Shown one piece after another: positions 25,120-45,581 of a DNA stretch of 64,000 nt; the first letter of the stretch is position 1, and each line of letters starts with the position of its first letter. Below the pieces are notes generated by a model. That model made no database searches. It was not told where the DNA came from and saw only the letters and a list, made by a program, of their open reading frames with translations. The translations under genes and the position numbers were made by a program. The stretch is from an archaeon (GTDB lineage Bacteria > Gemmatimonadota > Glassbacteria > GWA2-58-10). The stretch lies in the NCBI GenBank assembly GCA_035528795.1, contig DATKXY010000266.1, positions 1,683-65,682 on the forward strand, written 5' to 3'.

Positions 25120-26106
25120 TTGATGGCGCTGACAGGTGAGTATAAACGGGTAAACTTTATCACTAATGTTAATCGAGAAATGATCTTAAGACCGGCAGGG
25201 AAAACCTTGATGAAGGTTTTATTATATCTCTTGTCTGTTTTGATGATCGGGCCACGCCTGTTGACTGCTCAAGAGCTTCCTTTCTACTTGATGGAAATGG
25301 GCGAGGGCCATAGTAATTACGCTTTTGTCGTAGACAAGAAAAATCAGGTGCTTTCCCTTTTCCAAGGCTCCCCCGAAGGACCACAGCTCTTCAAAAAATA
25401 CCGCTGCACCACCGGAAAGAACAACAATGGGTCCAAATACCGCGCCGGAGACAACAAGACCCCGAACGGCATTTATTTTTTCAGAGGTATCCTGGAAGAT
25501 GAACAACTGCCTGAGAAGTACGGGGTCCGCGCCTTCCCCATGGACTATCCCAATGATTACGACCGCCTGAGCAACAAAACCGGCTCAGGAATCTGGCTCC
25601 ATGCAGTGGATGACGACAACCGGGTGGAGATAAGCTACGATACCGAGGGCTGCGTGGTGGTCACCAATAACGATATGGTTGATTTAACCCCCTATGTTTC
25701 TCTCTATACCACACCGATAATTATCGACGACAGTATTTTTACTGTCTCGAAAGACCAGTTCCAGGCCGAAAAGAAAAAAATTCTCGACCTTGTCTCAGGC
25801 TGGGTGGATGCCTGGCAGAACAAGGAGCTTGACCGCTACATGAATTACTACGATGAGCGCTTCCAGGGCTCGGGACGGAACAGGTCCCAGCACAGGGCCC
25901 ATAAACAAACTCTGAACAGAAACTACAAAGAAATCAAGGTCGATATTTCAGATATCAGGATCTACCACTACCATAAATACATTGTGCTCTCTTTTAACCA
26001 GGAATACCGCTCGAACCTCTTTAACTCGAAGGGCCGTAAAAGGCTTTATCTGGCCAATACAGGAGACGAGTGGAAAATAATCTCCGAAAGATTCCAGCGA
26101 ATGTGA
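25120..26106 (+). CDS. YkuD-family L,D-transpeptidase/carboxypeptidase with a C-terminal NTF2-like domain (Csd6/Pgp2-like)
   Basis: GDNKTPNGIY, YPNDYD, GSGIWLH..TEGCVV; C-terminal WVDAWQNK..YMNYY..FNQEYRS..GRKRLY..WKIISE. Real start may be a downstream ATG. Confidence 0.88.
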   Translation: MMALTGEYKRVNFITNVNREMILRPAGKTLMKVLLYLLSVLMIGPRLLTAQELPFYLMEMGEGHSNYAFVVDKKNQVLSLFQGSPEGPQLFKKYRCTTGKNNNGSKYRAGDNKTPNGIYFFRGILEDEQLPEKYGVRAFPMDYPNDYDRLSNKTGSGIWLHAVDDDNRVEISYDTEGCVVVTNNDMVDLTPYVSLYTTPIIIDDSIFTVSKDQFQAEKKKILDLVSGWVDAWQNKELDRYMNYYDERFQGSGRNRSQHRAHKQTLNRNYKEIKVDISDIRIYHYHKYIVLSFNQEYRSNLFNSKGRKRLYLANTGDEWKIISERFQRM

Positions 26107-26242
26107 TAGAGCCCCTCTGAATTTTACCTGCCCTTGAATTGCACGCTAGAGATAGATATACTGTTAACCAAGAAATGTTTCCCCCCCTTCCCGGGATCAG
26201 TTTAAGAATAATCATACCGTCTAACCGCTGCAGCGTAAAAAG

Positions 26243-29200
26243 ATGAGCCTCCTGACAGTCAGGCAAAAAACTCTGCTTACAAGGATACTGGCGGTCTATC
26301 ATCCGGAGTGGGCCTCCCGGGCCGGCAGCCTGGAATCGCTCGCGGAGCGGGAGCTGACTGAAGCTGCGGATTACCTGGAGCGCGTAGTCGGGACTCTCGG
26401 GCTTTTCATCCCCGGCGTGAGACATGATTTCGGGATCACTGAGAGGGGTGGAGATGCCGTGGTTGCCTATTTTACCGGAAAAGAACGCGGCCGGCTGCGG
26501 CGATTTTTCATGATGCTTGACGTGTCGGGCTTCACCGCCCTTCTCACCTTTTTAACCGACCGGTTCGGCAAGCAGGAAGCGGGAGATATAATGAACCTGA
26601 GTATTCTCAACCGCTATTGCCTGGACAAGATCGGCCTGCTGGTCCACTATTTCGGCTCCCAGGACGGGGAGTTTAGCACGCCGGGGGAGAAAGCCTTGAA
26701 AGTGGCCCTTTCTTTCAGGGCGCAGCTTGCACGGGTCACTGACCAGGTGCGTCGGGAGCTGAGCTTGAAACTGGCAGGCAAGCCGCATCAGGAGACTATC
26801 ATACCTTTTATCCGGAGTCTCCAGATAAAAGCCTCGGGTTCTGTAGTGGCCGCAGCAGGGGGACGGTCGGACTTTTACGGCAAAAACAACCGCGTTCGTA
26901 TCACCTGGGGCCAGACCGCCCGCCGTGTGGCAGCCGCCGAAAAAGTGGGCGGCAGCGATCAGAGAGTCGACCCTAAACTGGCCGAGTGTAAGGGAGTCGG
27001 CCTTGACAGCCAGGCGCTTGAGGCTTTGAAGGGCCTGCTGGAGAAAGGCTGGCTCAGGAAGGGCGACTTCCGCCTGAGAGACACCGGCCGCTATCGCAAA
27101 CTGGTCCTCACCCCTCGCGGCCAGGACAGGCTGCTCGAGCAGGTGGATGGACTTCTGGAAAATTACCGGGTCGAAGCGGAAGAAAGCTCGACATGGACAG
27201 GGGTTCCCGCACCAGACAAAGGCCGCGATCTTTTGCGCATCCGAAAGGCAGCCTCCAGTCTCGAGGAACTCCTGCCTTTCCTGTACGGGGTGGATTTTAT
27301 CGAACTTGTGGTCAGCCATCTGGATTCAGAAGGAGACCGCAGGCTTTTGTTTGCAGACCGCTCGAGCCGGATTCACGAAACCGGGATACTTTTTACCAAT
27401 TTCACGGTTTCAGGCAGCGAGCTGCTCGATGAACTGGCCGAGCTGGTGCATGAGGTGACCTCACGCTATGGACTGATTTGCAAATACAATATTTTCCCCA
27501 GAGGAGATTTCAACCTGATGGCTGTTTTGGGTCTGGGAGCTTCCGGGGCGCAGGCTGCGAACCGATTCTACGCGGAGATTCTCTGGCAGTGCTGGCGGGA
27601 TTTGGTCTCCGGTGTGGAAAGAGCTTTCCGCGACCGGGTGTGTCTGCGTTCAGGCATGAGCGTGGGTAAATGCCTTCAGGGTCCGGTGGGTGATAACCTG
27701 ATCCACAACGAACTGACTGTGATCGGTCCTGACTGCAACCTGGCAGCGCGCCTTCTTGCCCGGGCCCTGACCAAGACCGACGGCAAGAGCGGCACCATGG
27801 TGCTGACTAAAGCATGCTATGGCACATTGGGCCACCTGGTCCAGCCTGTAGAGAGTTTCGAGCGGGCGCATCTGAAGGGATTCTCTGATCTGGTACCGTT
27901 ATATTCGGCAAGCCCCCGCAAGGAGAATGAAAGCCTCGAGGTCTTTATAGCCCGTCTGCGCCAGCTGCCTCTGGTCACTACCGATGGGGTACTGGTTGAC
28001 CAGCAGTCCCGTCTGCGCGACGACCGCTGTCTTGCCGCCTGCCTTGATTATCTGGAAGCCGTTGAAAGGGGAAAGAGAGCTGCGAAGGGAGTTCTTGCTT
28101 TTACAGGAGAGAGCGGACTGGGTAAAACGCGCCGGATGGCCGAGCTTATGCAGTGGGGCTTGAATAGAGGCTGGACAGTCCTGTACGGTGAATGCCTGAG
28201 CTGGTACCAGGGAACCGGGAAGCGAGTGGCCCTTGAGACAGCGGGCGCTGAAACCCGCGCAGTGCCCTACCATCCTTTTATCCGCATCTTGAATGAGCAA
28301 GTGTTCGATATTCTTCCCCATGACACGGCAAGCGCTGCCCTGGAAAAAATCAGGCAGGCTTTTATCCGTTTGTCCATTGATAAGGAGCTTCTCGATCAGG
28401 TGCCCATAGTGGGTTCGTATTTAGGGATTGCTGTGCCGGAGGGAAAAATCCCCGTCAGTTTGAGTCCCCTTCAGCGGCGGAACATTTTTTTCGAGCGGGT
28501 GGCTGAAATTTTCGAGAGAATAATCGCTTCCAGGGGAAAGGGCCTGCTGCTCTCTGTCGATGATCTCCAGTGGGCCGACCAGGGCAGCCTGAAACTATTG
28601 CAATTCTTGCGTCAAAGGATTGGCGAAGGGCTGGTTATCTGCGCCGGCGCGCTCCATCCCGGGAACCTCCAGACACTCGACTCGACAAGAGAGGAGGAGC
28701 GGAAGAACAGTTTCCGCCCGTTCGAGCTGCAGCCGCTTAAAAGGCGTGGAGCCGCTGTGCTGGCCAGAGCGGCCCTCGGCCTGAAACCGGAGGCCGGGCT
28801 GCCCGGGCTTCTTGATAAACGTATCGGCGAGCTTGAGAACAACCCGTTGTTCATTATCGAGTTCTGCCGGAAGCTGCTCGATACCGAGGTGGTTTTCGTC
28901 CGGGATGGCAAGGTCCAGAGAATTGAAGAAGAAGCATTAAGCGGTTTGAGCGTGCCCAATCGGGTGCATTCAGTAATCGAAGAGCTTATTAACAGTTTAC
29001 CCAAGCAGGATTTCGATCTTATCCGCCATGCCTCGATACTGGGCAACACCTTGCGCTGCCGGCATGTGGCTGAGCTTTACAGCCGGCTTACCGGTGATAG
29101 TAAAACAGAGCTCAGCGGAATCTATCAGACCTTGCACAGGCTTGCCGGCGGCCGGGTTCTGGAAATCGAGCAGGACAGAGGCCCGGATTCGGTCTATAAA

Positions 29201-30931
29201 TTCAGCCGCTCCCTGATCGCCCTGTCCCTGTATCAGGGATTGCCTCCCTCGCTCAGAAAGAGGCTTCACGGGCTGGCCGCTGAGATTTTCCAGAAATCGC
29301 GGGAATACAGCCCCCAGGAAAAGACCCTTGCCTGCGCGCTCCATTATGAGCTCGCTGAAAGGCCGCAGGAGGCTTGCGGCTATTATCTGGACTCAGCTCA
29401 CTGGGCAGGGGAGCTTTTTGAAAACGAAAGAGCCCTCAAGCTACTGAACAAGGTCGAACGGTTCTGCGGTCTCCATCATTTTGCAAATGGAGAGCGCATG
29501 CTATTGGATGCTTATGGCCTGCGGGGTAACGTAGCTCTTGCGCTCGGTCATTACGGGAGATCGCTCGAAGACTGCAAAAAAGCGGAGCGCCTGGCCTTGA
29601 GACTCAATGATCCCTGCCTGGCAGGAAAAGCTCTGCTCGTTTCCGGTAAGACTTACCTGACCAGAGCGCAGGCAGACGATTTCCGGCTTGCCCTTTCCAG
29701 ATTCCGCAAGGCGGAAGGAAGGCTGGCCCGAGAGAGATTATTGGTCTTTGAAGCCCGGAACGGCCAGGCGCGGGTGCTGCTTGAAACAGGCCGGCTTTCC
29801 CGGGCCAGGGAAAATGCGGAAATCGCCCTCCGAGCTCTGGAGAGTGTATTAGATAGTAGAAAGCTGTCAGAGGAAGAAATACTTATCAAGGCCGGTCTGC
29901 TGCGTACCATGGGAACATCCCTGCTCCGGATGGGAAAGCACAGCGAGGCTCTCGCTGTCTATGACCAGGCGCTCGATCTGGTGGAACGAAGAAGCGGAAG
30001 CTCCTTGCTCCAGATCAAGGCCATGCTTATCAACAGCAAAGCTCTGGGCCTGGCATCCTCTTTTCGGCTGGCCGAGGCGCTTGACCTTTATTATCAGGCA
30101 AAATCCACAGCCCGCCGGGTGGGAGATATCAACCTCCAGATCGTGATCATGAATAACATGTCGGTAGCGCTCAATGATTCCGGCCAGAACGCCAAGGCCC
30201 TCGACCTCCTGTTAAGCCGTTACAAAAGCCTGGTGGAACTGGCCGGAGAAAACCGCTCGGTTGCAGGCTTCGAGTTCAATGTCGGGGAGTCCTACCATTT
30301 CATGGAAAATTATAGCGGCGCGGAGAGGCATTACAGGAGGGCGTTGGAGATTGCCAGAAAGATCGGCAGCCGGCAGTTTGAGGTGAATGTCATGTACAAC
30401 CTGGGCGAATCGATCAATGATCAGGGACGCAGAGAGGAAGCCTGTTTAATCCTCGGTAAAGGGCTGCGCATTGCCCGCAGCCAAGGATACCGCCAGCAGG
30501 AGATAGATCTGGAAAACCTTCTGGGCGAGATCGAGCGGGATAGGGGAAAACTTCGCCGGGCCCTGCGCCGTCACAAGCATACAGTTTCAGTCGCGCAGGA
30601 GCTGGGCGACCTGTTCGGCCGGAGCTGGAGTTTAAGGAATCTGGCTGTAGATTTGCTCACCCTCGGTAATCCGGCTGATCTCAAGCAGGCCCGGGAGATG
30701 ATTTTCACCTCCCTCGAGCTTTCCCGCAAAGCCGTACAGCCTGAAAACACCATGGAGACTTTGAGGCGGATACTGGAGTTTGCAGGCCCGCTGGGCCTCG
30801 AACCCGGAGAGAGGAGATCACTCTTAAGACAGTTGCAGGAGCTGGCCGGGAAACAGGAGAGCAAGAAATACCTTGAATTTTGCAGCCGCCTCGCTGGGGC
30901 GCTGACAACAGCAGGGGATAAACAGCAATGA
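26243..30931 (+). CDS. Twin class III nucleotide cyclase domains + STAND/AAA ATPase + TPR (sAC-like), paralog 1
   Basis: GGDAVVAYF, LDVSGFTAL, ELTVIGPDCNLAARL, Walker A GESGLGKT, Walker B LSVDDLQW, NNPLFIIE, C-terminal TPRs. Confidence 0.88.
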   Translation: MSLLTVRQKTLLTRILAVYHPEWASRAGSLESLAERELTEAADYLERVVGTLGLFIPGVRHDFGITERGGDAVVAYFTGKERGRLRRFFMMLDVSGFTALLTFLTDRFGKQEAGDIMNLSILNRYCLDKIGLLVHYFGSQDGEFSTPGEKALKVALSFRAQLARVTDQVRRELSLKLAGKPHQETIIPFIRSLQIKASGSVVAAAGGRSDFYGKNNRVRITWGQTARRVAAAEKVGGSDQRVDPKLAECKGVGLDSQALEALKGLLEKGWLRKGDFRLRDTGRYRKLVLTPRGQDRLLEQVDGLLENYRVEAEESSTWTGVPAPDKGRDLLRIRKAASSLEELLPFLYGVDFIELVVSHLDSEGDRRLLFADRSSRIHETGILFTNFTVSGSELLDELAELVHEVTSRYGLICKYNIFPRGDFNLMAVLGLGASGAQAANRFYAEILWQCWRDLVSGVERAFRDRVCLRSGMSVGKCLQGPVGDNLIHNELTVIGPDCNLAARLLARALTKTDGKSGTMVLTKACYGTLGHLVQPVESFERAHLKGFSDLVPLYSASPRKENESLEVFIARLRQLPLVTTDGVLVDQQSRLRDDRCLAACLDYLEAVERGKRAAKGVLAFTGESGLGKTRRMAELMQWGLNRGWTVLYGECLSWYQGTGKRVALETAGAETRAVPYHPFIRILNEQVFDILPHDTASAALEKIRQAFIRLSIDKELLDQVPIVGSYLGIAVPEGKIPVSLSPLQRRNIFFERVAEIFERIIASRGKGLLLSVDDLQWADQGSLKLLQFLRQRIGEGLVICAGALHPGNLQTLDSTREEERKNSFRPFELQPLKRRGAAVLARAALGLKPEAGLPGLLDKRIGELENNPLFIIEFCRKLLDTEVVFVRDGKVQRIEEEALSGLSVPNRVHSVIEELINSLPKQDFDLIRHASILGNTLRCRHVAELYSRLTGDSKTELSGIYQTLHRLAGGRVLEIEQDRGPDSVYKFSRSLIALSLYQGLPPSLRKRLHGLAAEIFQKSREYSPQEKTLACALHYELAERPQEACGYYLDSAHWAGELFENERALKLLNKVERFCGLHHFANGERMLLDAYGLRGNVALALGHYGRSLEDCKKAERLALRLNDPCLAGKALLVSGKTYLTRAQADDFRLALSRFRKAEGRLARERLLVFEARNGQARVLLETGRLSRARENAEIALRALESVLDSRKLSEEEILIKAGLLRTMGTSLLRMGKHSEALAVYDQALDLVERRSGSSLLQIKAMLINSKALGLASSFRLAEALDLYYQAKSTARRVGDINLQIVIMNNMSVALNDSGQNAKALDLLLSRYKSLVELAGENRSVAGFEFNVGESYHFMENYSGAERHYRRALEIARKIGSRQFEVNVMYNLGESINDQGRREEACLILGKGLRIARSQGYRQQEIDLENLLGEIERDRGKLRRALRRHKHTVSVAQELGDLFGRSWSLRNLAVDLLTLGNPADLKQAREMIFTSLELSRKAVQPENTMETLRRILEFAGPLGLEPGERRSLLRQLQELAGKQESKKYLEFCSRLAGALTTAGDKQQ

Positions 30932-33900
30932 TCAGAAGAAGAACAGTCATCAAGGCCGTGCGTGAAGATCAGCCAGCCAGGGAGCTTCTCGCTCAGATTC
31001 TGGCCAATGTCAAAGCGTCCTGGGCCGACTGCTGCCGCAGAAGTGATTGGGACAGTCTGGATCAGGTGGAATTCGGCCGGATGCTCAAATACCTGGAAAA
31101 TGTATCCAGGAACACCCGCCTTTTTATCCCCGCACGCGACCCGGATTATGGGATCTCCGAGCGGGGAGGGGATGCCATTCTGGGTTATCTGCGCAATCCG
31201 GGAGATCAGGGAGCCTATTTTTTCTTTGCCGATGTGAGCGGGTTTACCGCGCTTCTCACCTTCCTCACTGACCGTTTCGGCAAGGAAGAAGCAGGCGACA
31301 TCATGAACCTGGGTATTCTCAACCGCTACTGTTTGAACAAGATGGGGCTGGTTCTCGAGCATTTCAAAGAGGAGCCCGGCCGCGGCGCGGATAGAGGTGT
31401 GGCGGCTCTCAAGGTCATGCTCTCGATCCGGGCCGCCATGCCGCTCATTACCAGAGAGGTGCGCGGCGAGTTGTTCCTTAAGCTTGCCGGCAAGCCGCAC
31501 CAGGAGGAAATAAAAGAGTTTATCAAGAATCTCGAGGTCAAGTCGAGCGGGGGGCTGATTTTCGACCGTCAGGCCAAAAGCGAGTTCTACGGTTCCAGGG
31601 TGCGGGCGAGAATTACCTGGGGCGATACCGGCAAGCTGGTGGCTCAGGCCGAAAAGCTTGGCGGCAGCGATGAAAAGGTGCATGTGGGTGTCAAGGAAGT
31701 AAAGGGAATCGGCATGGATGAGCACTGCTACCGGAGGCTGGATGACCTTTACGCAGAGGGGTGGCTCGGGCTGAATCCAGGCGACTTTGCAATCTTAGAA
31801 TCCTATGGCAAGTTCCGCAAACTGGTTATCCGGCCCTCGGGCATGGAAAAGATAAGTGGTTTTATCGAGGACTTGTGCGCCGGCTATGAGGGTCGCGCAA
31901 AAAGAAGTGACACACGGGGTTATGCAGAACTCGGGGGCCAGGCGGAAAGGGAACTCCTGGACGAGTTCGGGGCCGGGTTTCTCGATATCGAGCGCTACCT
32001 GGGCTCAAGGCTGCTTCTCCTTCATATCGTACAGAATCTTGGATCGAGCGGGGACAAGAATATCCTGATTGACGAAAGCTGCTCCGCAGTCAGGGACAGC
32101 GGAGTTCTGTTCTGCAATTTCGAGCTCGAAGACAAAGGCGTTCTGGATTCTTTAGTCGATGAAGTCCATCTGATTATGTCCCGCTATGGCATTCATTACA
32201 AGTACAATATCTTTACCAGGGGTGATTTCAACCTGATGGGCGTACTGGGCACGATGTTTTCCGAGAGGAAGGGCACGGACCGGTATTTTGTCGAGATACT
32301 CTGGAACACCTGGCGGGACATGAAAGCGGCTATGGAAAAAACCTTTGGCGCCGCGGTGAAAATTCGCGGCGGCCTGAGTGTGGGCAAAGCCCTTCAGGGG
32401 CCTGCAGGCGACAATATCATTCACAACGAGGAGACGATCATCGGGCCGGACTGCAACCTCGCCGCCCGCCTGGTCAATGAGGCTTTGGAAATCGACAGCC
32501 AGGGTAATTTCATCTATCCCTCGGGCAGCCTGTTCACTATCGCGAGCCAGCACAGGAAGGTCGAGCATCTAATCCAGCCCGCCCAGCCGGTGAGAGAAGC
32601 CAGTCTTAAGGGTTTTCGCAAGCCGGTCGCCCTGTACAGCCTTATCGAGCGCGGCGAGGTGGAAACAATCGTCGAGTTTATCGCCCGCCTGCGTAAAGTG
32701 CCGCTGGTTACGATCGAGGGTGTAATCGTGCGGGATGAGGAGTCTATGCGCCAGGACGCGTTTCTCGCTGAATGTATGGACGTGGCCGGGCGCACAGCAG
32801 CCGGCCTCACGGAGCGCTCCCAGTTAGTCAGCTTTATCGCCCAGAGCGGTGTGGGCAAGACAAGAAGGATAGCGGAGCTCGCCCACTGGGCGCTCGGGAA
32901 AGGCTGGCCGGTATATTTCAGTGAATGCTTTAGCTGGTACCAGGGTGAGGGGCCGGGCTCCTCTGCCTCAGATCCGGATGTCATCGACCAGCCGGAAAGC
33001 CACAGCGATGAAGGAGCATACCCCTTTTATCCTTTCATCCGAATTCTGAAAGAGCAGATATTCAGGATCAATAATGTCGACCCCCCGGAGCTGAAGAGGG
33101 GGAAAATCGCCGGAGTGCTCAGCATGCTCGATCCTGATAATCCCGGACTGGCAGAGCAGGCTCCGGTCCTGGCCTCCTTTATCGGTGTGGAGGTACCCGA
33201 AACCGGATTTTCCTCTGCCCTGGACGCCGAGGCGCGAAGGAACATCTTTTATGAGCGCACTGGAGATATCTTCGCCCGCGAGGTTGAAAGACAGGGAGGA
33301 AAAGGTCTGGTGCTGCTTTCCATTGATGACCTTCAGTGGTCCGACCGCAACAGCCTGCACCTTTTAAGCTTCATTATGCGCAGGGTCGGCAGGGGCCTGG
33401 TGGTTTGTGTCAACGCCCGGAAGAAACACCAGCTCGGCATCCTGCTTGATCAAGACCTGCCTGTAGACCGGCATGTTTTCGAGCCAGGCCTCCTCCAGCA
33501 CGGGGCTATCGAAAGACTCGCCCGGCTCGTGCTGGGAGTCGATATCGAAGATCCGGAGGTCGGCTTTCCCCCCGAGCTCAAGGCCAAGCTCGAAAGAGAA
33601 CTCGAGAGCAACCCGTTCTTTGTCATCGAGTTTTGCAACAAGCTCCTGGAGCAGGAGATTATAACCGTGGCAGATGGCCGGTGCACACGGTTTGATGACG
33701 AAACTTTCCGCGACGTGTCGATTCCCAACAAGATCCAGGGTGTTATCGAGGACCGTATCCGCCGTCTCCCGAAAACCGAACACGTGGCTATCCAGTATTC
33801 GAGCGTCCTGGGCAATATCCTGCGCTATATTATTATCCGTCAGTTCCTGCCTGTCGTGGACCACGACAGGATTTTCGAGGGCACCGACCTGGCTGAGATA

Positions 33901-35691
33901 TTCAGCCGGCTCACCGGGCAGGAGATCACCAGGCTCGAGAACGAGAAAGATCCGGACTGGGTGTACGCATTCAAGCGGGCGCTGATTGGTGAAAAACTCT
34001 ACCAGGAGCTGGTTCCCAGTCTGCGCAAAAGACTGCATAAAGAAGTGGCCCGTGTATTCGAAAAAACCGAGCTCGCTAACAGGTTCGAAAAAGTCCTGCT
34101 CACTGCTCTCCATTACACCAATGCAGAAGTGCCTGATAAATCCAGCATTTTTTACCTCGAGGCTGGAAAGCTGGCCAGAGAAGTCTTTGACAATGAGCGG
34201 AGCCTGAAACTTTTCGACCGCATCGAAAAAATCCTCAAGGAGCACAGAATCCCCGATGCCGGTAAACGCAAGACTGACATGCTGGAGAACAGGGGACAGG
34301 TGAACCTGCTGCTGGGCCGGTACGATAAAGCCCTCGAGGATTTCCAGAACCTTGCAGCAGAAGCCTCAGCCCGGGCTGACCGGGAACTGGAAGCCAGGGC
34401 CCATTACCTGAGAGGCAGCACTTATTTTCAACGCGCAGGCGGGAGCGACCTGGACCGGGCGATAGCACAGTTCGCCGGGGCGGAGAGTAAAACAGCGGAT
34501 GACCGTTTGCTCGCCGATATCCTGAATGACAGTGCCCGGACCTATCTGGAAAAAGGGGAACGTGAAGCGGCGCTCAGGCTTTTGGACCGCGCCGAGGAGG
34601 CTTTCCGGCGCTGCGCCCAGACCGAGCCTGCTGTTGATGACTGCATTTTCGAGGCCTTGCTCTTGCGCAACCGCGGCAGCGTTTTTCACCGCCAGGGGCT
34701 GTTCAAGAAAGCAATCGAAATATACAACAAAGCGCTGCGGCTCGTTGATCAGGAAGCCGAAAACCGCTTCAAAAAGATCCGCGCCATGCTCTATAACTCG
34801 ATCGGCCTGTCGCTGATGAAAGCTTTCAAGCTTGAGGAAAGTTTGGAGTATTTCAGTCAGGCTCTCAACCTGGCGCACTCGATCGGAGATCTGAAAACCG
34901 AGCTTCAGGTGCGGATCAACATGGGTGTGGTGGCCAATGATATGGGCCGGAACAAAGAGGCCCTCCAGATGCTTACCGAGCAGTTGTACATGTTGGAGAT
35001 GCTGGTGGGCGAAACAAGGGAGCTGGCTGCGCTCGAGTTCAATATCGGCGAAAGCCATATGTTTATGGAGAATTATGCCGAGGCTGAACCGAGGTACCGC
35101 CGGGCGCTCGATATCGGGGAGCGTGTCGGTTACAAGGAGTTCGTGGTGGCGACCCGTTATAACCTGGGCGAGGTGCTGCACACTTTAAAGCGCCCGGAGG
35201 AGGCCCTTGAGGTGCTCGAGCCGGGGTACGGGATGGCTGTTGAAGGGGGCTGGGATCTCCAGAGAATGGATCTGGCAAATCTGTTGGGTGAAATCCACCG
35301 GGAAGCCGGCCGGTTCTCAAAAGCCGGCGAATACCATGAACAAGCCTTGGACCTGGGCCGCAAGCTCGAGGATGAATTCGGTACGAGCTGGGCTCTGCGC
35401 AATGTGGCCCTGGACACACTGGAGGATCCGCAGGCCACGGAGGAAGACCTGGGCGCTTGCGCAAGCCTGCTCGAGGAGTCGCTCGAGCTGGCGCGCAAGG
35501 CCGGGCAGCCGGAAAACCTGATGTACTCTCTGCGGGAACTGATCCGCTACAAGCTCGACCGCAGGAATGATCCACCGGGGGCGAGACCCCTTTACGAGGA
35601 GCTGAAAAAACTGGCCGATAAGGTCGAGAGCAAGCAGTTCGGCAGTTTTTGCGAGAGTGTCAGAGACCGTCTCAGGGAACCGGCGGAATAA
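30928..35691 (+). CDS. Twin class III nucleotide cyclase domains + STAND/AAA ATPase + TPR (sAC-like), paralog 2
   Basis: GGDAILGYL, FADVSGFTAL, EETIIGPDCNLAARL, AQSGVGKT, LSIDDLQW, SNPFFVIE, TPRs; ATGA overlap with paralog 1. Confidence 0.88.
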   Translation: MIRRRTVIKAVREDQPARELLAQILANVKASWADCCRRSDWDSLDQVEFGRMLKYLENVSRNTRLFIPARDPDYGISERGGDAILGYLRNPGDQGAYFFFADVSGFTALLTFLTDRFGKEEAGDIMNLGILNRYCLNKMGLVLEHFKEEPGRGADRGVAALKVMLSIRAAMPLITREVRGELFLKLAGKPHQEEIKEFIKNLEVKSSGGLIFDRQAKSEFYGSRVRARITWGDTGKLVAQAEKLGGSDEKVHVGVKEVKGIGMDEHCYRRLDDLYAEGWLGLNPGDFAILESYGKFRKLVIRPSGMEKISGFIEDLCAGYEGRAKRSDTRGYAELGGQAERELLDEFGAGFLDIERYLGSRLLLLHIVQNLGSSGDKNILIDESCSAVRDSGVLFCNFELEDKGVLDSLVDEVHLIMSRYGIHYKYNIFTRGDFNLMGVLGTMFSERKGTDRYFVEILWNTWRDMKAAMEKTFGAAVKIRGGLSVGKALQGPAGDNIIHNEETIIGPDCNLAARLVNEALEIDSQGNFIYPSGSLFTIASQHRKVEHLIQPAQPVREASLKGFRKPVALYSLIERGEVETIVEFIARLRKVPLVTIEGVIVRDEESMRQDAFLAECMDVAGRTAAGLTERSQLVSFIAQSGVGKTRRIAELAHWALGKGWPVYFSECFSWYQGEGPGSSASDPDVIDQPESHSDEGAYPFYPFIRILKEQIFRINNVDPPELKRGKIAGVLSMLDPDNPGLAEQAPVLASFIGVEVPETGFSSALDAEARRNIFYERTGDIFAREVERQGGKGLVLLSIDDLQWSDRNSLHLLSFIMRRVGRGLVVCVNARKKHQLGILLDQDLPVDRHVFEPGLLQHGAIERLARLVLGVDIEDPEVGFPPELKAKLERELESNPFFVIEFCNKLLEQEIITVADGRCTRFDDETFRDVSIPNKIQGVIEDRIRRLPKTEHVAIQYSSVLGNILRYIIIRQFLPVVDHDRIFEGTDLAEIFSRLTGQEITRLENEKDPDWVYAFKRALIGEKLYQELVPSLRKRLHKEVARVFEKTELANRFEKVLLTALHYTNAEVPDKSSIFYLEAGKLAREVFDNERSLKLFDRIEKILKEHRIPDAGKRKTDMLENRGQVNLLLGRYDKALEDFQNLAAEASARADRELEARAHYLRGSTYFQRAGGSDLDRAIAQFAGAESKTADDRLLADILNDSARTYLEKGEREAALRLLDRAEEAFRRCAQTEPAVDDCIFEALLLRNRGSVFHRQGLFKKAIEIYNKALRLVDQEAENRFKKIRAMLYNSIGLSLMKAFKLEESLEYFSQALNLAHSIGDLKTELQVRINMGVVANDMGRNKEALQMLTEQLYMLEMLVGETRELAALEFNIGESHMFMENYAEAEPRYRRALDIGERVGYKEFVVATRYNLGEVLHTLKRPEEALEVLEPGYGMAVEGGWDLQRMDLANLLGEIHREAGRFSKAGEYHEQALDLGRKLEDEFGTSWALRNVALDTLEDPQATEEDLGACASLLEESLELARKAGQPENLMYSLRELIRYKLDRRNDPPGARPLYEELKKLADKVESKQFGSFCESVRDRLREPAE

Positions 35692-35774
35692 ATTATCCAA
35701 CGCCCTAAAGAGCGAAGGCTGCGGTCAGCGGTTTTCAATTTTTTAAGGCCTGATCCCTTTAATCGAAAAGATTT

Positions 35775-39123: not shown

Positions 39124-40332
39124 ATGACAAATTATAAATGGCAAAAAACAGCCTATCGAGGTGTGCGGTGCCGGCTACACCCCGTAAGAAAATTTGGAGT
39201 TAATCAAGACCGTTATTTTACAATTCAATATCGTCTTGACGGTAAAACAAAAGAGGAAGGGCTAGGCTGGGCCTCGCAAGGGATGACAGCAAAAAAAGCC
39301 TCTATCTATCTTGCTAAACTTAAAGAGGCCCGGCTTACAGGAAACGGAGCGCAAACACTGAAAGAGCAGAGAGAACAGGCAAGGGCGCAGCGGGAACAGG
39401 AAAAACGGGAAGGACTTACCTTTGGAGAATTTTTTGAGCAAACATACTTTCCCCTAGCTATGGTCAATAAAACTTTCAAATCCTATAACCGGGAGCGAAT
39501 TTTTTTCAATATTTGGATACAACCTGTTATAGGAGACAAACCGTTATCCAAAATATCGCCGCTGCACCTGGAAAGAATAAAAAAAGACTTGGGCGATGCT
39601 GGCAGGGCACCGCGGACCATCCATTACTGCCTCGCAGTGATAAGGCAAATCATTAACCTGGCAAAAATTCTTAATCTATACGAGGGAGATAATCCGGTAA
39701 ACAAGGTTAAAAAGCCGCACGTAGATAACCGGCGGGTGCGCTTTCTGTCTCATGAAGAGGCGGATAGGCTCCTCCAGGACCTTGCTGGCAATCCGCAGTT
39801 CCACGACATGGCCCTGCTTAGCCTTCATACTGGCATGAGAGCCGGTGAAATATTCAAGTTGACCTGGGACTGTGTTGACCTTGAACGTGGAACCTTATTT
39901 CTGAAAGACACCAAAGGGAGCAGAAACCGAGCGGTCTATATGACTGAGCAGGTAAAGAACATGTTAATTGAGAGGAAGGGAACGGGCACCGGCTATGTTT
40001 TTAAAGACAGGAACGGCGGGAAGTTTGAAAAAACTTCCAATGTTTTTTGGAAAACTATTAAGCGGCTAAAATTTAATGAGGGTGTTACAGATACCAGGGA
40101 CAAAGTTGTTTTTCACACCTTGAGGCACACCTTCGCAAGCTGGCTTGTCGAAAGCGGAGTTGATCTGTACACGGTTAAGACACTCCTGGGCCATAGCACC
40201 CTTGCAATGACCGAAAGGTATAGCCATTTGTCTCAAGGCACGCTTCAGGAGGCCGTCAAGCGCCTCGAGCTATCAATAAAAGAAAGCAAGCAGGCGGAAG
40301 TGGTAGAGCTCGCTCAAAAACTTCAATCATAA
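39124..40332 (+). CDS. Tyrosine recombinase / phage integrase
   Basis: TGMRAGE, KDTK, HTLRH, LLGH, RYSH: catalytic set intact; N-terminal arm-binding-like region. Confidence 0.96.
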   Translation: MTNYKWQKTAYRGVRCRLHPVRKFGVNQDRYFTIQYRLDGKTKEEGLGWASQGMTAKKASIYLAKLKEARLTGNGAQTLKEQREQARAQREQEKREGLTFGEFFEQTYFPLAMVNKTFKSYNRERIFFNIWIQPVIGDKPLSKISPLHLERIKKDLGDAGRAPRTIHYCLAVIRQIINLAKILNLYEGDNPVNKVKKPHVDNRRVRFLSHEEADRLLQDLAGNPQFHDMALLSLHTGMRAGEIFKLTWDCVDLERGTLFLKDTKGSRNRAVYMTEQVKNMLIERKGTGTGYVFKDRNGGKFEKTSNVFWKTIKRLKFNEGVTDTRDKVVFHTLRHTFASWLVESGVDLYTVKTLLGHSTLAMTERYSHLSQGTLQEAVKRLELSIKESKQAEVVELAQKLQS

Positions 40333-41758: not shown

Positions 41759-42379
41759 ATGACCATTGAAGAACGCCTGGAAGTGGTGGAACGGGAACTG
41801 GCCGCCTCACGGCGGCGCACCAAGCGACTGTGGATAAGCCTAGGGCTGGCCGGTGTGGTGTGTGCACTGGCTTGGAGCCTTACGGCAACCACGAGTACCG
41901 CAAAGACCCAGGGAGCCGAAAAGGTCATACGAGCCAATAAGTTTATTGTGGAAGACGAGAACGGCAAGGGCCGCGCCGTACTGTCTGCCTATAAGTACGG
42001 GCCGATGCTGATGCTGATAGACGAGAACGGCCAGCCCCGCGCCGAGCTGTCTGTCCCCACGTTTGGGTCGTCGCTGTCGCTATACGAGGAGAACGGCAAG
42101 ACCCGCGCCGTGCTGGGCATCGACAAGGACGGGTCGATGCTATGGCTGGCAGACGAGAACGGCCAGCCCCGCGCCATGCTGGGTGTCTCCAAGGACGGGC
42201 CGGTGCTGTGGGATGAGAAGGGTAGACTCCGCACCGTGCTGGGCATCGACAAGACCGGGACGGGGCTGTGGCTATACGAGGAGAACGGCAAGACCCGCGC
42301 CGTGCTGGGCATCGACAAGGACGGGTCGGGGCTGTGGCTATACGACGAGAACGGTAAGGCAATATGGAGAGCGCCCTAA
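41759..42379 (+). CDS. Membrane-anchored beta-repeat protein, copy B (expanded repeats)
   Basis: Same N-terminus as copy A; about six ~22-aa repeats; WRAP end. Confidence 0.8.
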   Translation: MTIEERLEVVERELAASRRRTKRLWISLGLAGVVCALAWSLTATTSTAKTQGAEKVIRANKFIVEDENGKGRAVLSAYKYGPMLMLIDENGQPRAELSVPTFGSSLSLYEENGKTRAVLGIDKDGSMLWLADENGQPRAMLGVSKDGPVLWDEKGRLRTVLGIDKTGTGLWLYEENGKTRAVLGIDKDGSGLWLYDENGKAIWRAP

Positions 42380-42519
42380 AAGGATGAGAAGGACACCGGT
42401 AAAGAGCGGAAGGCCCTGAAAACCGATGGCTATGAGCTGCGGGATGTTTCTTAATTCATCCACCGGGGCCAGGGAAAGCCACTTACCGTTTACAGTGCAG
42501 ACAAAGTCATGTAATATCC

Positions 42520-42666
42520 ATGAATGTGAATGATATTGCTCGTGAACTGCTCCAGAGCCACCAGATGAGGCACTTAAGAGAGGCGGCTGATTTTGCTAGT
42601 GATATTATAAAACAAGCCCTAAATGAGAATCAAAGGCTTGTAAATCTAACCAGAAAAAGAAAGTGA
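42520..42666 (+). CDS. Small hypothetical protein (48 aa)
   Basis: MNVNDIARELLQSHQMRHLREAADFASDIIKQALNENQRLVNLTRKRK*; ends 10 nt before the next ORF. Confidence 0.4.
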   Translation: MNVNDIARELLQSHQMRHLREAADFASDIIKQALNENQRLVNLTRKRK

Positions 42667-42676
42667 CCTTCTAACT

Positions 42677-43507
42677 ATGAATGAAGAGCAGAAACGTATA
42701 GATGAGGCGTGGGATGCTTTTTACAAGTCTGAAGAAGCATTGAAAAATGTTAAAGCGCACCCGGAGGACTCGCCTATTAAAAAAAAGAGATTGGAGAAAT
42801 ATAAGCAAGACATACTGGTTGCTAAAGTACAGGAGTTATTGCCAAAAATTCCCACAGAAAGAATAAGAGAATTTATTACCGATTTACAAGATATTCTAAA
42901 GAACTTCGATGAAAAGACGGTGCACGCTTTTATCAATGATGTTGCTATGGCGATGAGGAATGAGATGGATATGACACCTAAAAAAGTGATAAGATTGGCA
43001 ATAAATAATATCAAAAAGTTGAATAAAAAGATTTCACAGATGAATGACGAACTGCAGGGCTTCACAGATTTCTTTAATGTAAATTATATTAAATTTTATA
43101 CTTACTTTCTTCTTTCTGATGGCATATTAGAGGCTAAAAAAGCTTACAATAGCCTTACTGAACTTCAAAAATTAGCAATCCAAATTATTAATGATAAACC
43201 AGCTAGTCCTCGTGGCCGAGAACCAGCTGAAAAGGATTCTCTTGTCCTCACAATTGCAATTTTGTTCAACGAGTTCTTTAAACGGCCTTCTACTAATCCC
43301 TTGGGCCCATTTTACAAAATAGTGCAGAAAGTCCGCGATGAACTTGGTCGGGACAGCGTTGATCCATCCAAATCAGTAAAGGCAGCTGTAGCCACTTTGA
43401 GAAAAAGGAGATTTGTCACGATTAAAGAAGAAGTAGAAGAAGAAGTAGAAGAAGAAGAAAAATCAGACTTCGAAGAGGACTATCCCCCCGACATTGTAAT
43501 CATATGA
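42677..43507 (+). CDS. Hypothetical helical protein with an acidic C-terminal tail
   Basis: 276-aa ORF; ends EEVEEEVEEEEKSDFEED. Confidence 0.7.
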   Translation: MNEEQKRIDEAWDAFYKSEEALKNVKAHPEDSPIKKKRLEKYKQDILVAKVQELLPKIPTERIREFITDLQDILKNFDEKTVHAFINDVAMAMRNEMDMTPKKVIRLAINNIKKLNKKISQMNDELQGFTDFFNVNYIKFYTYFLLSDGILEAKKAYNSLTELQKLAIQIINDKPASPRGREPAEKDSLVLTIAILFNEFFKRPSTNPLGPFYKIVQKVRDELGRDSVDPSKSVKAAVATLRKRRFVTIKEEVEEEVEEEEKSDFEEDYPPDIVII

Positions 43508-43751
43508 CATTCAATCCCACTAATGATTCTTCTCGTTTATTAGATACCAACCATCTTTAGTTTTTCCCATGTGCTATATTTTTATTCAAACTTTCCACCT
43601 ACATATTTGATTCTATCGGTCGGGTTTTTTTATGACTTTTTCTTTCAAATTTAAAAGAAAAAGTCCGTAGCGAGATGGTTTCAATCCTCATAATTTGAAT
43701 AAATGGTATTATTAAATTGAAACATAACCATTCACACACACCTTTTTCAAT

Positions 43752-44000
43752 TTGGAGGTAATAATGAGTGTTTTTGAAAAGCTCGCGTTGACCTGGCCTT
43801 CTGCAATCGTCTCGCGCAGTGAGGTCTCAAGATTTAGTGGCGGATTAATAAATCCCAGGAGCTTAGCGAATATGGACAGTTTGGGCCTGGGTCCGGCTAA
43901 CCGCTTCAGATGCGGTCGAAAAATTTGCTATCCTGTTTCTGATTTAATCGCTTGGCTGGAATCCAGAGTGACCGTGGTGAAGCCGTCGGGAAAATTCTAA
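43752..44000 (+). CDS. AlpA/excisionase-like DNA-binding protein (likely start ATG 43764)
   Basis: SRSEVSRFSGGLINPRSLANMDSLGLGP..GRKICYPVSDLIAWLE winged-helix pattern. Confidence 0.7.
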   Translation: MEVIMSVFEKLALTWPSAIVSRSEVSRFSGGLINPRSLANMDSLGLGPANRFRCGRKICYPVSDLIAWLESRVTVVKPSGKF

Positions 44001-44024
44001 ACAAGTTAAACAGCGAGCCGCGCT

Positions 44025-44588
44025 ATGGATGAAAACAAGAAATATATGTTGCCCGTCAAGGGAGATAAAAAGGGATTTAGCATTATTGAAAATGACCTGC
44101 TACGCTCACCGGCCCTCTTGAGCTTGGGGGCGAGTTCCTTAAAACTTTACTTGCTTCTGCGAAGTCATGCGATGGTAACACACCCGGTCGGGGGAAAGCC
44201 AGGTAGGGGCGGGCGCTCATGGATTGAAAATAAACTTATTTTAACCTATAAAAAGGCTGGGGAATATTTCAATCAAGGCAAGAAACAGAAAGTATCGAGC
44301 GCAACTATCTCAAGAGCTTTCCGTGAGCTTATAGAAAAGGGTCTTTTGGATGTTGATAAATGGGGACACGGAAAGTGCAAGGTGGCGAGTGTTTACAGCT
44401 TATCGACCAGGTGGAGGCTATATGGACAGCCAAGTTTTCAACAGGTAGATATAGATAAATGGCATAACATTTCTTTGGCCGGGCAGCGGGCATTGATTGC
44501 TTTCAATTCCAGCGAGAAAACGCCGGCGACCTTTTTAGACACAGTAGAAGCAGGTAAAGATAAAAGAACAAAGAAAGATACCACCTAG
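44025..44588 (+). CDS. HTH protein, putative replication initiator
   Basis: LSLGASSLKLYLLL..SSATISRAFRELIEKGLL..SVYSLS; followed by a repeat array. Confidence 0.55.
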   Translation: MDENKKYMLPVKGDKKGFSIIENDLLRSPALLSLGASSLKLYLLLRSHAMVTHPVGGKPGRGGRSWIENKLILTYKKAGEYFNQGKKQKVSSATISRAFRELIEKGLLDVDKWGHGKCKVASVYSLSTRWRLYGQPSFQQVDIDKWHNISLAGQRALIAFNSSEKTPATFLDTVEAGKDKRTKKDTT

Positions 44589-44610
44589 ACCTGGCATATT
44601 ATTAATAATG

Positions 44611-44789
44611 ATGTCAAAATCGACATTTGAGGACATAAAAAACGTGAAAACGCAAAACTACTTGAAAAGAAAAGATTTAAGCTGTTTTGGCAGCCTCGTC
44701 AAATGTCAAAAACGACATTTGGAAAAAAGGTGGAAATAGTTTTCAAATGTCAAAAACGACATCTGTCAAATGTCATGGACGCCATTTGG
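44611..44789. repeat. Four palindromic iteron-like sites, ATGTC-N6-G(A/C)CAT
   Basis: Copies start at 44611, 44703, 44747 and 44770, in an A-rich context. Confidence 0.8.
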
Positions 44790-44887
44790 AAAAAACTTTT
44801 GACCTGCCTTTCGAGGTGGGTCCAGTGCCGGGCAGTTCGTTTCCAGCGCGGCGGCGGGCTGCCTGGCCAATTTTTTTCTGAGTAAGG

Positions 44888-45356: not shown

Positions 45357-45581
45357 GACCCTTTCAAGGCTGAGTGTAGAACGGGCTGAAATGGAATAGG
45401 ATTGAATTCAACGGGATTCAACGAGTTTAAAACGGAGTGTTTTTTCGCACCCATACCAAGTTATAGGTGATAAATAACATGAGCTATGATTCGACAAAAG
45501 ACAGCGTGCTGAAAACCTTCAAAAAGCGATGCTGGGCCGCATCCTCGCCCGGCCTTTTCTTTTGCACGTTAGAAGGATTCA

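What the first reader, a model, noticed from the sequence alone, without database searches (positions are those of the whole stretch)
26243..35691. Tandem sAC-like cyclase-STAND-TPR pair with a rearranged catalytic domain
Established: class III cyclases carry the first metal-binding Asp in FxDxxGFT (beta1), then two helices, then the beta2-beta3 hairpin with the second Asp (KFxGDA). Seen: in both proteins the hairpin-like segment (GITERGGDAVVAYF at ~26432-26473; GISERGGDAILGYL at ~31150-31191) lies BEFORE DVSGFTAL. It is absent at the expected place, where LNRYCL.K.GL..HYF runs straight into ALKV.LS. The second cyclase domain keeps the normal order (KYNIF.RGD, E.T.IG, NLAARL). Both diverged paralogs share this order, which argues against an assembly error. 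Inference: a segment-permuted but catalytically complete nucleotide cyclase gated by a STAND ATPase/TPR sensor, possibly an undescribed family.
Basis: partly seen in the sequence, partly recalled or inferred. Interest (0 to 1): 0.85.

Follow-up and report, generated by a model that had tools for sequence, protein, structure and literature searches.

The report
Soluble-type adenylyl cyclase pair, relocated hairpin
Two neighbouring giant genes encode signalling enzymes built like the soluble adenylyl cyclase of animals, but the small hairpin that carries one of the two metal-binding aspartates lies before the strand it normally follows, a rare rewiring of a well-known enzyme fold.

Summary
Two overlapping ORFs (26243-30931 and 30928-35691, + strand; 1562 and 1587 aa; 40% identical) each encode N-terminal helices, two class III cyclase-homology domains, an AAA_16 STAND NTPase and TPRs. 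This is the domain order of soluble adenylyl cyclase (sAC) and of Chloroflexota-type tandem cyclases.

In domain 1 the ERGGDA hairpin lies about 20 residues before DVSGFT in 39 of 40 family motif sites, against 0 of 91 canonical ones. The canonical slot is about 9 residues short and has no GD. Moving the hairpin in silico to positions 136-142 nearly doubles the match to a canonical C1 profile (15 to 28 bits; 6 of 1000 shuffles as good).

Both models put the hairpin as a meander against strand beta1, with D71 opposite D93/V94. I had no coordinates, so no distance was measured.

D71, D93, K414, T492, N499 and R503 are invariant in 37 of 37 members. Among 41 genomes of the phylum the family was found only in one bacterial family (Glassbacteria-named records). 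Verdict: a new variant of a known kind. Catalytic activity is inferred, not shown.

The parts
26134..26162 (+). promoter-like site in the 136-bp gap upstream of the first gene
   Evidence: consensus scan, TTGAAT-17-TATACT, 9 of 12. This is a pattern match only.
26243..30931 (+). gene 1 (P0001, 1562 aa): helices, CHD1, linker, CHD2, STAND NTPase, TPR. Paralog clade A.
26243..26401 (+). N-terminal helical region (residues 1-53), ending in the LFIP motif shared with canonical tandem cyclases
   Evidence: DSSP H6-53. hhalign aligns query 21-60 with template 34-75.
26426..26488 (+). relocated beta-hairpin (residues 62-82) with invariant ERGGDA (67-72, nt 26441-26458). D71 is the proposed second metal-binding Asp.
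   Evidence: strands E63-69 and E72-81, pLDDT 75-86; invariance; relocation test
26519..26536 (+). DVSGFT (residues 93-98) at the end of strand beta1 (84-95). D93 is the first metal-binding Asp.
26648..26680 (+). the slot where the canonical beta2-beta3 hairpin is missing (residues 136-146, end of helix 120-138 plus a variable loop)
   Evidence: gaps in hhalign. Best insertion point 136-142 in 20 of 20 sequences.
26426..27112 (+). cyclase-homology domain 1 (C1-like, residues 62-290)
27113..27352 (+). helical linker between the two cyclase domains (residues 291-370)
   Evidence: DSSP H291-316, H326-346, H350-358
27353..27922 (+). cyclase-homology domain 2 (C2-like, residues 371-560), in canonical order. 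N386 replaces the beta1 Asp. K414, D422, R469, T492, N499 and R503 are present.
28043..28618 (+). STAND-type P-loop NTPase (AAA_16, residues 601-792). Walker A lysine is K628 and Walker B is D773 D774.
   Evidence: Pfam PF13191, 62 bits against a cut-off of 32.6; Walker residues
29897..30607 (+). TPR array (Pfam hits between residues 1219 and 1455)
   Evidence: TPR_12 E 3.5e-23 and others; Pins/LGN TPRs in the PDB
30928..30931 (+). ATGA start/stop overlap of the two genes
30928..35691 (+). gene 2 (P0002, 1587 aa), same architecture. Paralog clade B.
31144..31197 (+). relocated hairpin of gene 2 (residues 73-90) with ERGGDA (78-83, nt 31159-31176). D82 lies in the turn.
   Evidence: E74-79 and E83-89, pLDDT 78-86; invariant columns
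31231..31248 (+). DVSGFT of gene 2 (residues 102-107) at the end of beta1 (96-104)
32071..32655 (+). cyclase-homology domain 2 of gene 2 (about residues 382-576)
   Evidence: alignment with P0001; own CHD profile 23.6 bits (row d8)
32830..33396 (+). STAND NTPase of gene 2 (AAA_16, residues 635-823)
   Evidence: Pfam 28.1 bits, below the 32.6 cut-off, but collinear with P0001. Walker residues are conserved.
34441..35373 (+). TPR array of gene 2 (residues 1172-1482)
   Evidence: TPR_12 E 3.8e-40 and others
35714..35736 (+). terminator-like hairpin with a T run, 23 nt after the stop of gene 2
   Evidence: consensus scan. This is a pattern match only.

Best explanation
Each gene encodes a soluble, single-chain, pseudo-heterodimeric class III nucleotidyl cyclase, most likely an adenylyl cyclase of the Lys/Thr (sAC/CyaC-like) type.

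The first cyclase domain (C1-like) supplies the two metal-binding aspartates. The second (C2-like) supplies the purine-recognising Lys and Thr and the transition-state Asn and Arg. Together they form one active site at the domain interface, as in sAC and the membrane cyclases.

The unusual part is in C1. The beta2-beta3 hairpin with the second Asp (ERGGDA, D71 in gene 1 and D82 in gene 2) is encoded before strand beta1 (DVSGFT, D93 and D102) instead of after helices alpha1-alpha2. It folds back as a beta-meander into the same place in the sheet. The order of the chain differs, but the three-dimensional active site is kept.

The C-terminal STAND NTPase and TPR array probably act as a ligand- or partner-controlled switch on cyclase output.

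Shown here: gene structure, homology, motif order, predicted fold and topology, and the conservation pattern. Inferred: metal binding by D71, cAMP as the product, and regulation by the STAND/TPR part.
For: Homology to canonical tandem cyclases.
- hhalign of the family alignment A1 against 94 Chloroflexota-type PF00211+AAA_16 proteins gives 99.6%, E 1.3e-23, 453 columns, query 21-567.
- Against P0044 alone it gives 92.6%, E 4.6e-7.
- The A1 profile hits CyaB 3r5g at E 2.3e-5.

Predicted fold.
- Model of P0001 1-585 (pLDDT 73.7, pTM 0.75): Foldseek ranks human sAC first (4clk, E 1.7e-10), and sAC fills ranks 1-22.

Hairpin equivalence.
- Strands run 63-69, 72-81, then 84-95 after a two-residue turn, so by my own count A72 pairs with D93 and D71 lies opposite V94. 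The same hairpin-then-beta1 order is seen in P0002.
- Moving residues 62-80 to every position from 84 to 299 gives the best score against a canonical C1 profile at 136-137: 27.9 bits, against native 15.1, hairpin deleted 14.0, and a mean over all positions of 15.4 (sd 3.4). The best position is 136-142 in 20 of 20 sequences, and 6 of 1000 shuffled hairpins do as well.
- With a general CHD profile the best position is 136-141 in 18 of 20, and 26 of 2000 shuffles do as well.

Active-site conservation.
- D71, D93, K414, R469, T492, N499 and R503 are kept in 37 of 37 members.
- The pseudo-site is relaxed: N386 replaces the Asp in 37 of 37, and D422 is kept in 33 of 37.
- Walker A K and T are kept in 37 of 37.

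The host uses cyclic nucleotides. The genome has 9 canonical PF00211 matches and 17 cNMP-binding matches (16 above the curated cut-off).
Against: - Pfam Guanylate_cyc does not match either protein at E <= 1, and the genome-wide PF00211 search does not pick them up.
- Native domain 1 scores only 2-10 bits against a general CHD profile.
- No coordinates were available, so the D71-D93 distance was not measured.
- The models rest on only 20 related sequences, and the C-terminal half of domain 2 is poorly modelled (pLDDT 33-55 for residues 478-585).
- The alternative hhalign alignment leaves room for a degenerate relic of the old hairpin inside helix 120-138. If that stretch were really a hairpin, the AlphaFold topology would be wrong.
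- No activity, product or ligand has been measured for any member.
Confidence: 0.65

Rival explanations
1. Pseudo-cyclase. The tandem cyclase-like module binds ATP or another nucleotide as a sensor but does not cyclise it. The protein would be a STAND/TPR scaffold whose N-terminus is regulatory, like the Pseudomonas aeruginosa class III cyclase-like ATP-binding protein.
For: - Domain 1 is too divergent for Pfam.
- The rearranged hairpin could have come with a loss of catalysis.
Against: All residues needed for one catalytic site are invariant in 37 of 37 members of two paralog clades that are only 40-46% identical, while the pseudo-site positions drift. That pattern is what purifying selection on catalysis would give. 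It is also compatible with tight nucleotide binding alone.
Confidence: 0.17
2. The upstream hairpin is only an extra N-terminal sheet extension or a regulatory lid. Domain 1 has simply lost its second Asp and works with one Asp, or borrows another invariant acid (E112 or D115).
For: - E112 and D115 are also invariant.
- An hhalign alternative suggests a relic of the canonical hairpin in place.
- No distance was measured.
Against: - The upstream segment matches the canonical hairpin profile far better than shuffles of itself, and only in the canonical slot.
- ERGGDA is invariant.
- Two models put its turn at the Asp end of beta1.
- D115 lies at the start of the helix that aligns with canonical alpha2.
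Confidence: 0.1
3. An anti-phage STAND (Avs-like) defence pair whose cyclase module is an effector. On sensing a phage protein through the TPRs it would make a pyrimidine or other unusual cyclic nucleotide, or deplete NTPs.
For: - STAND plus TPR with an N-terminal enzymatic domain is a common defence architecture (established knowledge, recalled).
- An integrase gene lies 3.4 kb downstream.
Against: - PADLOC gives only a generic TPR hit.
- The genes sit among housekeeping genes: TrpRS, ScpA/B, a pseudouridine synthase and aspartate kinase.
- The family was found in 12 of 12 genomes of one bacterial family and in 0 of 28 other genomes of the phylum. The tandem order recurs in all 7 genomes (own included) where both copies lie on one contig; in two further genomes the copies are on separate contigs. 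That points to vertical inheritance rather than a patchy defence island.
- The Lys/Thr pair points to ATP.
Confidence: 0.06
4. Assembly or annotation artefact: a chimeric contig or a frameshift created the odd order.
For: None was found. The genome is a draft of 287 contigs.
Against: The same order is present in both paralogs here, in 20 modules from 13 genomes and in 39 of 40 database sites from independent sources, all in uninterrupted reading frames.
Confidence: 0.01

Closest known systems
Chloroflexota-type bacterial tandem cyclases (PF00211 x2 + AAA_16 +/- TPR; e.g. P0044, named 'adenylate/guanylate cyclase domain-containing protein [Chloroflexaceae bacterium]')
   Same: - They share the N-terminal helices with the (Y/F)(I/L)P motif, C1, linker, C2, STAND and TPR.
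- They are collinear with the window's family over 453 columns (99.6%, E 1.3e-23).
- C2 has the same extended K....GD hairpin and the same T, N and R.
- The group is large: 484 proteins at E <= 1e-10.
[quoted passage not shown] That these are the same tandem proteins as this group is my recollection, not checked here.
   Different: They keep the canonical order: beta1 Asp, two helices, then LLKFGGDA. Of 91 sites, 88 have the downstream GD and none has an upstream one. They are recognised by Pfam. The window's family is about 9 residues shorter at that place, carries ERGGDA upstream, and is not recognised by Pfam.
Mammalian soluble adenylyl cyclase (sAC, ADCY10), full-length isoform
   Same: - It is a soluble single chain with C1 and C2 followed by a predicted STAND domain with a P-loop (passages of PMC12802110).
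- It has Thr rather than Asp at the second purine-specifying position (class IIIb, recalled).
   Different: Canonical hairpin order (recalled; consistent with the collinear alignments here). Only 12-16% identity. The bicarbonate-site residues were not tested here. sAC is eukaryotic and single-copy.
Membrane adenylyl cyclases (AC9, AC5, AC8), C1/C2 catalytic core
   Different: They have membrane anchors and G-protein regulation, no STAND/TPR, and the canonical order.
Pseudomonas aeruginosa class III adenylyl cyclase-like ATP-binding protein (PDB 6yii)
   Different: The entry title describes an ATP-binding protein rather than a cyclase. I did not compare its catalytic residues. It has no STAND/TPR tail in the solved chain (473 residues).
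Actinobacterial cyclase-AAA-TPR-LuxR proteins (Rv0386 type) and TOMM kinase/cyclase fusion proteins (TIGR03903)
   Same: A CHD is followed by an AAA_16 STAND and TPRs. TIGR03903 matches the STAND region of both proteins, far below its cut-off (90 and 56 bits against 705.75).
   Different: One CHD that must homodimerise, plus a LuxR or kinase module. The Rv0386 architecture is recalled, not tested here.

Membership tests
Class III nucleotidyl cyclase (cyclase homology domain, Pfam PF00211) | Match to the Pfam Guanylate_cyc model above its gathering score | tested here: not met
   No PF00211 hit at E <= 1 for either protein. The six-frame PF00211 search of the genome finds 9 other genes but not these.
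Class III nucleotidyl cyclase (cyclase homology domain, Pfam PF00211) | Demonstrable homology to bona fide members | tested here: met
   hhalign against 94 PF00211-bearing tandem cyclases: 99.6%, E 1.3e-23. CyaB 3r5g E 2.3e-5. Domain 2 scores 18.8-44 bits against my profile of 41 canonical CHDs in 20 of 20 sequences.
Class III nucleotidyl cyclase (cyclase homology domain, Pfam PF00211) | CHD (palm-like beta-alpha-beta-beta-alpha-beta) fold in both domains | tested here: met
Class III nucleotidyl cyclase (cyclase homology domain, Pfam PF00211) | Canonical order of elements: beta1 Asp, alpha1-alpha2, then the beta2-beta3 hairpin Asp | tested here: not met
   In domain 1 the hairpin precedes beta1. 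Domain 2 has the canonical order.
Class III nucleotidyl cyclase (cyclase homology domain, Pfam PF00211) | Two metal-binding Asp side by side in space | tested here: inconclusive
   Both Asp are invariant, and the strand register of the model puts D71 opposite V94, next to D93. No coordinates were available and no distance was measured.
Class III nucleotidyl cyclase (cyclase homology domain, Pfam PF00211) | Transition-state Asn and Arg, and purine-specifying Lys plus Asp/Thr, on the partner domain | tested here: met
   K414, T492, N499 and R503 align to the canonical positions and are kept in 37 of 37 members.
Class III nucleotidyl cyclase (cyclase homology domain, Pfam PF00211) | Cyclase activity | not testable with these tools
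   Needs an enzyme assay.
sAC-type architecture (C1-C2-STAND-TPR on one soluble chain) | Two non-identical CHDs in tandem forming a pseudo-heterodimer | tested here: met
sAC-type architecture (C1-C2-STAND-TPR on one soluble chain) | P-loop STAND NTPase and TPRs C-terminal to C2 | tested here: met
   AAA_16 scores 62 bits in P0001 and 28.1 bits in P0002, the latter below the 32.6 cut-off. TPR_12 gives E 3.5e-23 and 3.8e-40. Walker A and B are conserved.
sAC-type architecture (C1-C2-STAND-TPR on one soluble chain) | Bicarbonate-binding residues at the pseudo-site | not tested
   No residue-level superposition was possible without coordinates.
Known anti-phage defence STAND systems (PADLOC models) | Match to a defence-system protein model | tested here: inconclusive
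   Only the generic model PDLC01169 'TPR' matched, at E 4.1e-9 and 1.7e-11. PADLOC dates from 2023.

The most novel reading that the evidence does not exclude
This would be the first class III cyclase (and, as far as my searches show, the first palm-type nucleotidyl cyclase) in which a catalytic element has been moved along the chain without moving in space. The metal-binding beta2-beta3 hairpin is encoded ahead of beta1, a non-circular permutation, and the enzyme is still active. Because the change predates a gene duplication and is fixed in a whole bacterial family, it would be a natural, functional example of how a conserved active site can be re-threaded. The nearest canonical relatives (the Chloroflexota tandem cyclases) are available for retracing the path.
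Probability: 0.5. Interest if true: 0.7.

Novelty: new variant of a known kind. Interest (0 to 1): 0.58.

Why it matters
Class III cyclases are among the best-studied signalling enzymes, and their motif order is treated as fixed. Pfam's model encodes that order and misses these proteins entirely.

- A family that keeps the active-site residues while re-threading one catalytic hairpin is a test case for how protein folds tolerate non-circular permutation.
- It shows that profile-based annotation can overlook real cyclases.
- It adds bacterial relatives with the C1-C2-STAND-TPR build of mammalian sAC, whose STAND/TPR tail is still functionally unexplained (PMC12802110, passages).

For the organism it is probably one more input to an already rich cAMP network: 9 other cyclase matches and 17 cNMP-binding matches in this genome. 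If the proteins prove inactive, the finding shrinks to a divergent pseudo-cyclase family.

Tried and rejected
- Single-sequence searches of the N-terminal 586 residues against PDB sequences gave nothing meaningful (best E 0.57). Pfam and NCBIfam gave no hit for residues 1-590.
- The exhaustive HMMER search of 1.84 billion representatives with residues 1-580 gave only 10 hits at E <= 0.001. Seven are family members or fragments. Of the other three, two are canonical cyclases and one has no cyclase hit, and all three match domain 2 only. No wider permuted family was found with this query.
- I considered D115 in the invariant EAGDIMN as the 'real' second Asp. I rejected it because this stretch aligns with the start of canonical helix alpha2 in both hhalign runs and is helical in both models.
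- I considered that the N-terminal helices are a relic of a duplicated alpha1-alpha2. I rejected it as unsupported, because they align with the N-terminal helices of the canonical tandem cyclases.
- The defence reading was checked with PADLOC and gene context and found weak.
- The ESM Atlas feature search of domain 1 gave 'adenylate cyclase' clusters at 0.94. This is a lead only.
- The tRNA scan of the window found none.
- Literature searches on permuted cyclase or palm domains and on Glassbacteria plus cyclase found nothing relevant. One search was unproductive. Supplements of papers were not opened.
Full report
WHAT IS THERE. Two long ORFs on the + strand fill the reported interval: 26243-30931 (P0001, 1562 aa) and 30928-35691 (P0002, 1587 aa). 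They overlap by the four bases ATGA. A promoter-like site lies in the 136-bp gap upstream (26134-26162), and a terminator-like hairpin with a T run lies just after the second stop (35714-35736) (pattern matches only). A two-gene operon is therefore plausible. The two proteins are collinear and 40% identical over their whole length. The neighbours are housekeeping genes: an M50 peptidase, TrpRS, ScpA, ScpB, a pseudouridine synthase and a YkuD transpeptidase upstream, and aspartate kinase downstream.

This is not chance or an assembly error.
- In an alignment of 20 N-terminal modules from 13 genomes, E67 R68 G69 G70 D71 A72 and D93-T98 are invariant.
- Among 37 database members they are kept in 37 of 37.
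- In a motif census, 39 of 40 D-x-S-G-F-T sites in family proteins have ERGGDA within 40 residues upstream. The one exception is an N-terminally truncated entry.
- Among the listed canonical tandem cyclases, 0 of 91 sites have it upstream and 88 of 91 have a GD at the canonical distance downstream.

WHAT THE PROTEINS ARE. Pfam sees only an AAA_16 STAND-type NTPase (P0001 residues 601-792 at 62 bits; P0002 at 28.1 bits, under the 32.6 cut-off) and many TPRs. It finds no cyclase domain at E <= 1. NCBIfam adds only far-sub-threshold matches of the STAND/TPR part to a kinase/cyclase fusion family.

Homology of the first 580 residues to cyclases appears only with profiles.
- The family profile hits P. 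aeruginosa CyaB (3r5g) at E 2.3e-5 with its second domain.
- A read-everything HMMER search found, besides family members and fragments, three weak hits to the second domain. Two of them are genuine Guanylate_cyc + AAA_16 proteins and the third has no cyclase hit.
- One of these, P0044 (Chloroflexaceae), is a canonical tandem cyclase. Its relatives number 484 at E <= 1e-10, with names from Chloroflexaceae, Roseiflexaceae, Oscillochloris and Anaerolineae.
- hhalign of the window's family against 94 of them gives 99.6% probability, E 1.3e-23, over 453 columns, from the N-terminal helices through both cyclase domains.

AlphaFold models agree.
- The P0001 1-585 model (pLDDT 73.7, pTM 0.75; domain 1 well modelled, the C-terminal half of domain 2 poorly) has human sAC as its top 22 Foldseek hits (best E 1.7e-10).

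The architecture is therefore helices, C1-like CHD, helical linker, C2-like CHD, STAND, TPR. This is the build of full-length mammalian sAC, for which a STAND domain with a P-loop is predicted (PMC12802110, passages read). Bacterial adenylyl cyclases homologous to sAC, such as those of Chloroflexus, are known to share its bicarbonate activation (PMC11006738, one passage read).

THE REARRANGEMENT. In the canonical relatives the order is beta1 (ADLSGFT), two helices, then the hairpin LLKFGGDALTAFF (P0044). In the window's family that place is empty. There is an 8-column gap against P0044 exactly at the hairpin, and the family is about 9-10 residues shorter than the 94-sequence profile, with no GD. 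In both models helix 120-138 (P0001 numbering) runs through a short variable loop into the next helix.

The upstream segment forms a beta-hairpin in both models: P0001 strands 63-69 and 72-81, and P0002 strands 74-79 and 83-89, with G-G-D in the turn. It leads straight into beta1 (84-95 and 96-104), at pLDDT 75-89. In P0001 the second strand and beta1 are joined by a two-residue turn. By simple register (my count from the DSSP strand limits, not a tool output), A72 pairs with D93 and D71 lies opposite V94.

In the ferredoxin-like palm fold the sheet order is 4-1-3-2, and the beta2-beta3 turn sits at the C-terminal end of beta1 (established knowledge, recalled). A meander hairpin attached to the N-terminus of beta1 reaches the same position from the other side. 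The canonical second domain of the same model shows the same local pattern: the Asp is the last turn residue and the next residue starts the strand (D422/F423 against D71/A72). I could not measure a distance, because no tool returns coordinates.

A SEQUENCE TEST OF EQUIVALENCE. I built a profile from the C1 domains of the canonical tandem cyclases and scored the 20 family domains after moving residues 62-80 to every position from 84 to 299.
- Native order scores 15.1 bits on average, and hairpin deleted 14.0.
- Moved to 136-137 it scores 27.9, against a mean over all positions of 15.4 (sd 3.4).
- The best position lies at 136-142 in 20 of 20 sequences.
- Of 1000 shuffled hairpins tried over positions 130-142, 6 reach the real score (mean z 4.8).

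A general profile of 41 canonical CHDs (38 domains from genomes of this phylum, 9 of them from this genome, plus P0046 and both domains of P0044) gives the same picture with less power. The best position is 136-141 in 18 of 20 sequences (the other two at 177), and 26 of 2000 shuffles reach the real score. The 20 sequences are related, so these are not 20 independent trials. The result says that the upstream segment is a recognisable beta2-beta3 hairpin and that its home slot is where the gap lies.

One nuance remains. A second-best hhalign alignment (78%) pairs NRYCLNKMG-LLL.HF with the extended hairpin of canonical C2 domains, so a degenerate relic of the old hairpin may survive inside helix 120-138. 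That would favour duplication and decay over a clean transposition. It could not be settled here.

IS IT AN ENZYME? The conservation pattern is that of a heterodimer-type cyclase with one live site.
- The two Asp of domain 1 (D71, D93) and, in domain 2, the Lys and Thr at the purine-specifying positions (K414, T492), the Arg of strand beta4 (R469) and the Asn/Arg pair of helix alpha4 (N499, R503) are kept in 37 of 37 members.
- The mirror-image positions are degenerate. Asn replaces the beta1 Asp of domain 2 in 37 of 37, and its hairpin Asp is His in 4 of 37.
- The assignments in domain 2 come from an alignment to my CHD profile at 18.8-44 bits in 20 of 20 sequences.

Lys plus Thr is the signature of the sAC/CyaC subclass of adenylyl cyclases (recalled classification), so cAMP is the likeliest product. 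The STAND Walker A Lys and Thr are kept in 37 of 37 members, and the two Walker B Asp in 37 and 36 of 37. The genome is rich in cyclic-nucleotide signalling: 9 canonical PF00211 matches elsewhere and 17 cNMP-binding matches, 16 above the cut-off. None of this shows activity. A nucleotide-binding pseudo-enzyme like 6yii is the main rival.

DISTRIBUTION AND HISTORY.
- With the N-terminal module as query, matches were found in 13 of 41 genomes searched: the window's own genome and 12 of 12 other genomes of its bacterial family, against 0 of 28 genomes of five other families of the phylum.
- Named database members are labelled Candidatus Glassbacteria.
- A maximum-likelihood tree splits the 20 modules into a P0001-like clade (7 rows) and a P0002-like clade (13 rows), each with 100/100 support.
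- Both clades carry the rearranged order, so it predates the duplication.
- Of the 12 other genomes, 8 have both paralogs. In 6 of those 8 both copies lie on one contig, in the same tandem order as in the window; in the other two they are on separate contigs, so adjacency could not be checked. The remaining four (three of one genus at 88-100% completeness, one at 76%) showed only the P0002-like copy.
- This steady, vertical pattern, the housekeeping context and the lack of any PADLOC hit beyond a generic TPR argue against a mobile defence system.

VERDICT. These are sAC-like tandem class III cyclase-STAND-TPR proteins in which the catalytic hairpin of the first domain is encoded ahead of the strand it follows in every other cyclase examined here. 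This is a new variant of a known kind, confined as far as seen to one uncultured bacterial family, and invisible to Pfam. Three literature searches found no description of such an order, but the library lacks most subscription journals and supplements were closed. Still open are the measured geometry, the activity and product, the role of the STAND/TPR tail, why two copies are kept, and the evolutionary route.

Noticed in passing
window 39124-40332 (+) and 42000-60000: A phage-integrase-family gene (PF00589, E 1.6e-31) is followed by a long stretch of lower G+C (0.35-0.47, against about 0.55 in the cyclase region). This may be an integrated mobile element or genomic island. No tRNA gene was found in the window.
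   Followed up: partly
L022/L023 (G002:C210:1736-3437): In one relative the P0001-like copy is split into two adjacent reading frames that meet at query residue 349. This is a frameshift, a sequencing error or a decaying copy. The P0002-like copy next to it is intact over the part held.
   Followed up: no
P0001 residues 107-118 (window 26561-26596) and the same stretch in P0002: The stretch RFGKeEAGDIMN between beta1 and helix alpha2 is almost invariant, with E112 and D115 kept in 37 of 37 members. It is matched by a GreGaE insertion in the canonical tandem cyclases. Its role is unknown.
   Followed up: partly
G000 contig C130 (L033, L034, L036): Three canonical Guanylate_cyc genes lie within about 5.5 kb on one contig of the same genome, and two cNMP-binding matches lie on the same contig. 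This looks like a cluster of cyclic-nucleotide signalling genes.
   Followed up: no
window 25120-26106 (+): The gene just upstream encodes a YkuD L,D-transpeptidase domain fused to a Cds6-type NTF2-like C-terminal domain. It starts at TTG in the ORF list.
   Followed up: no
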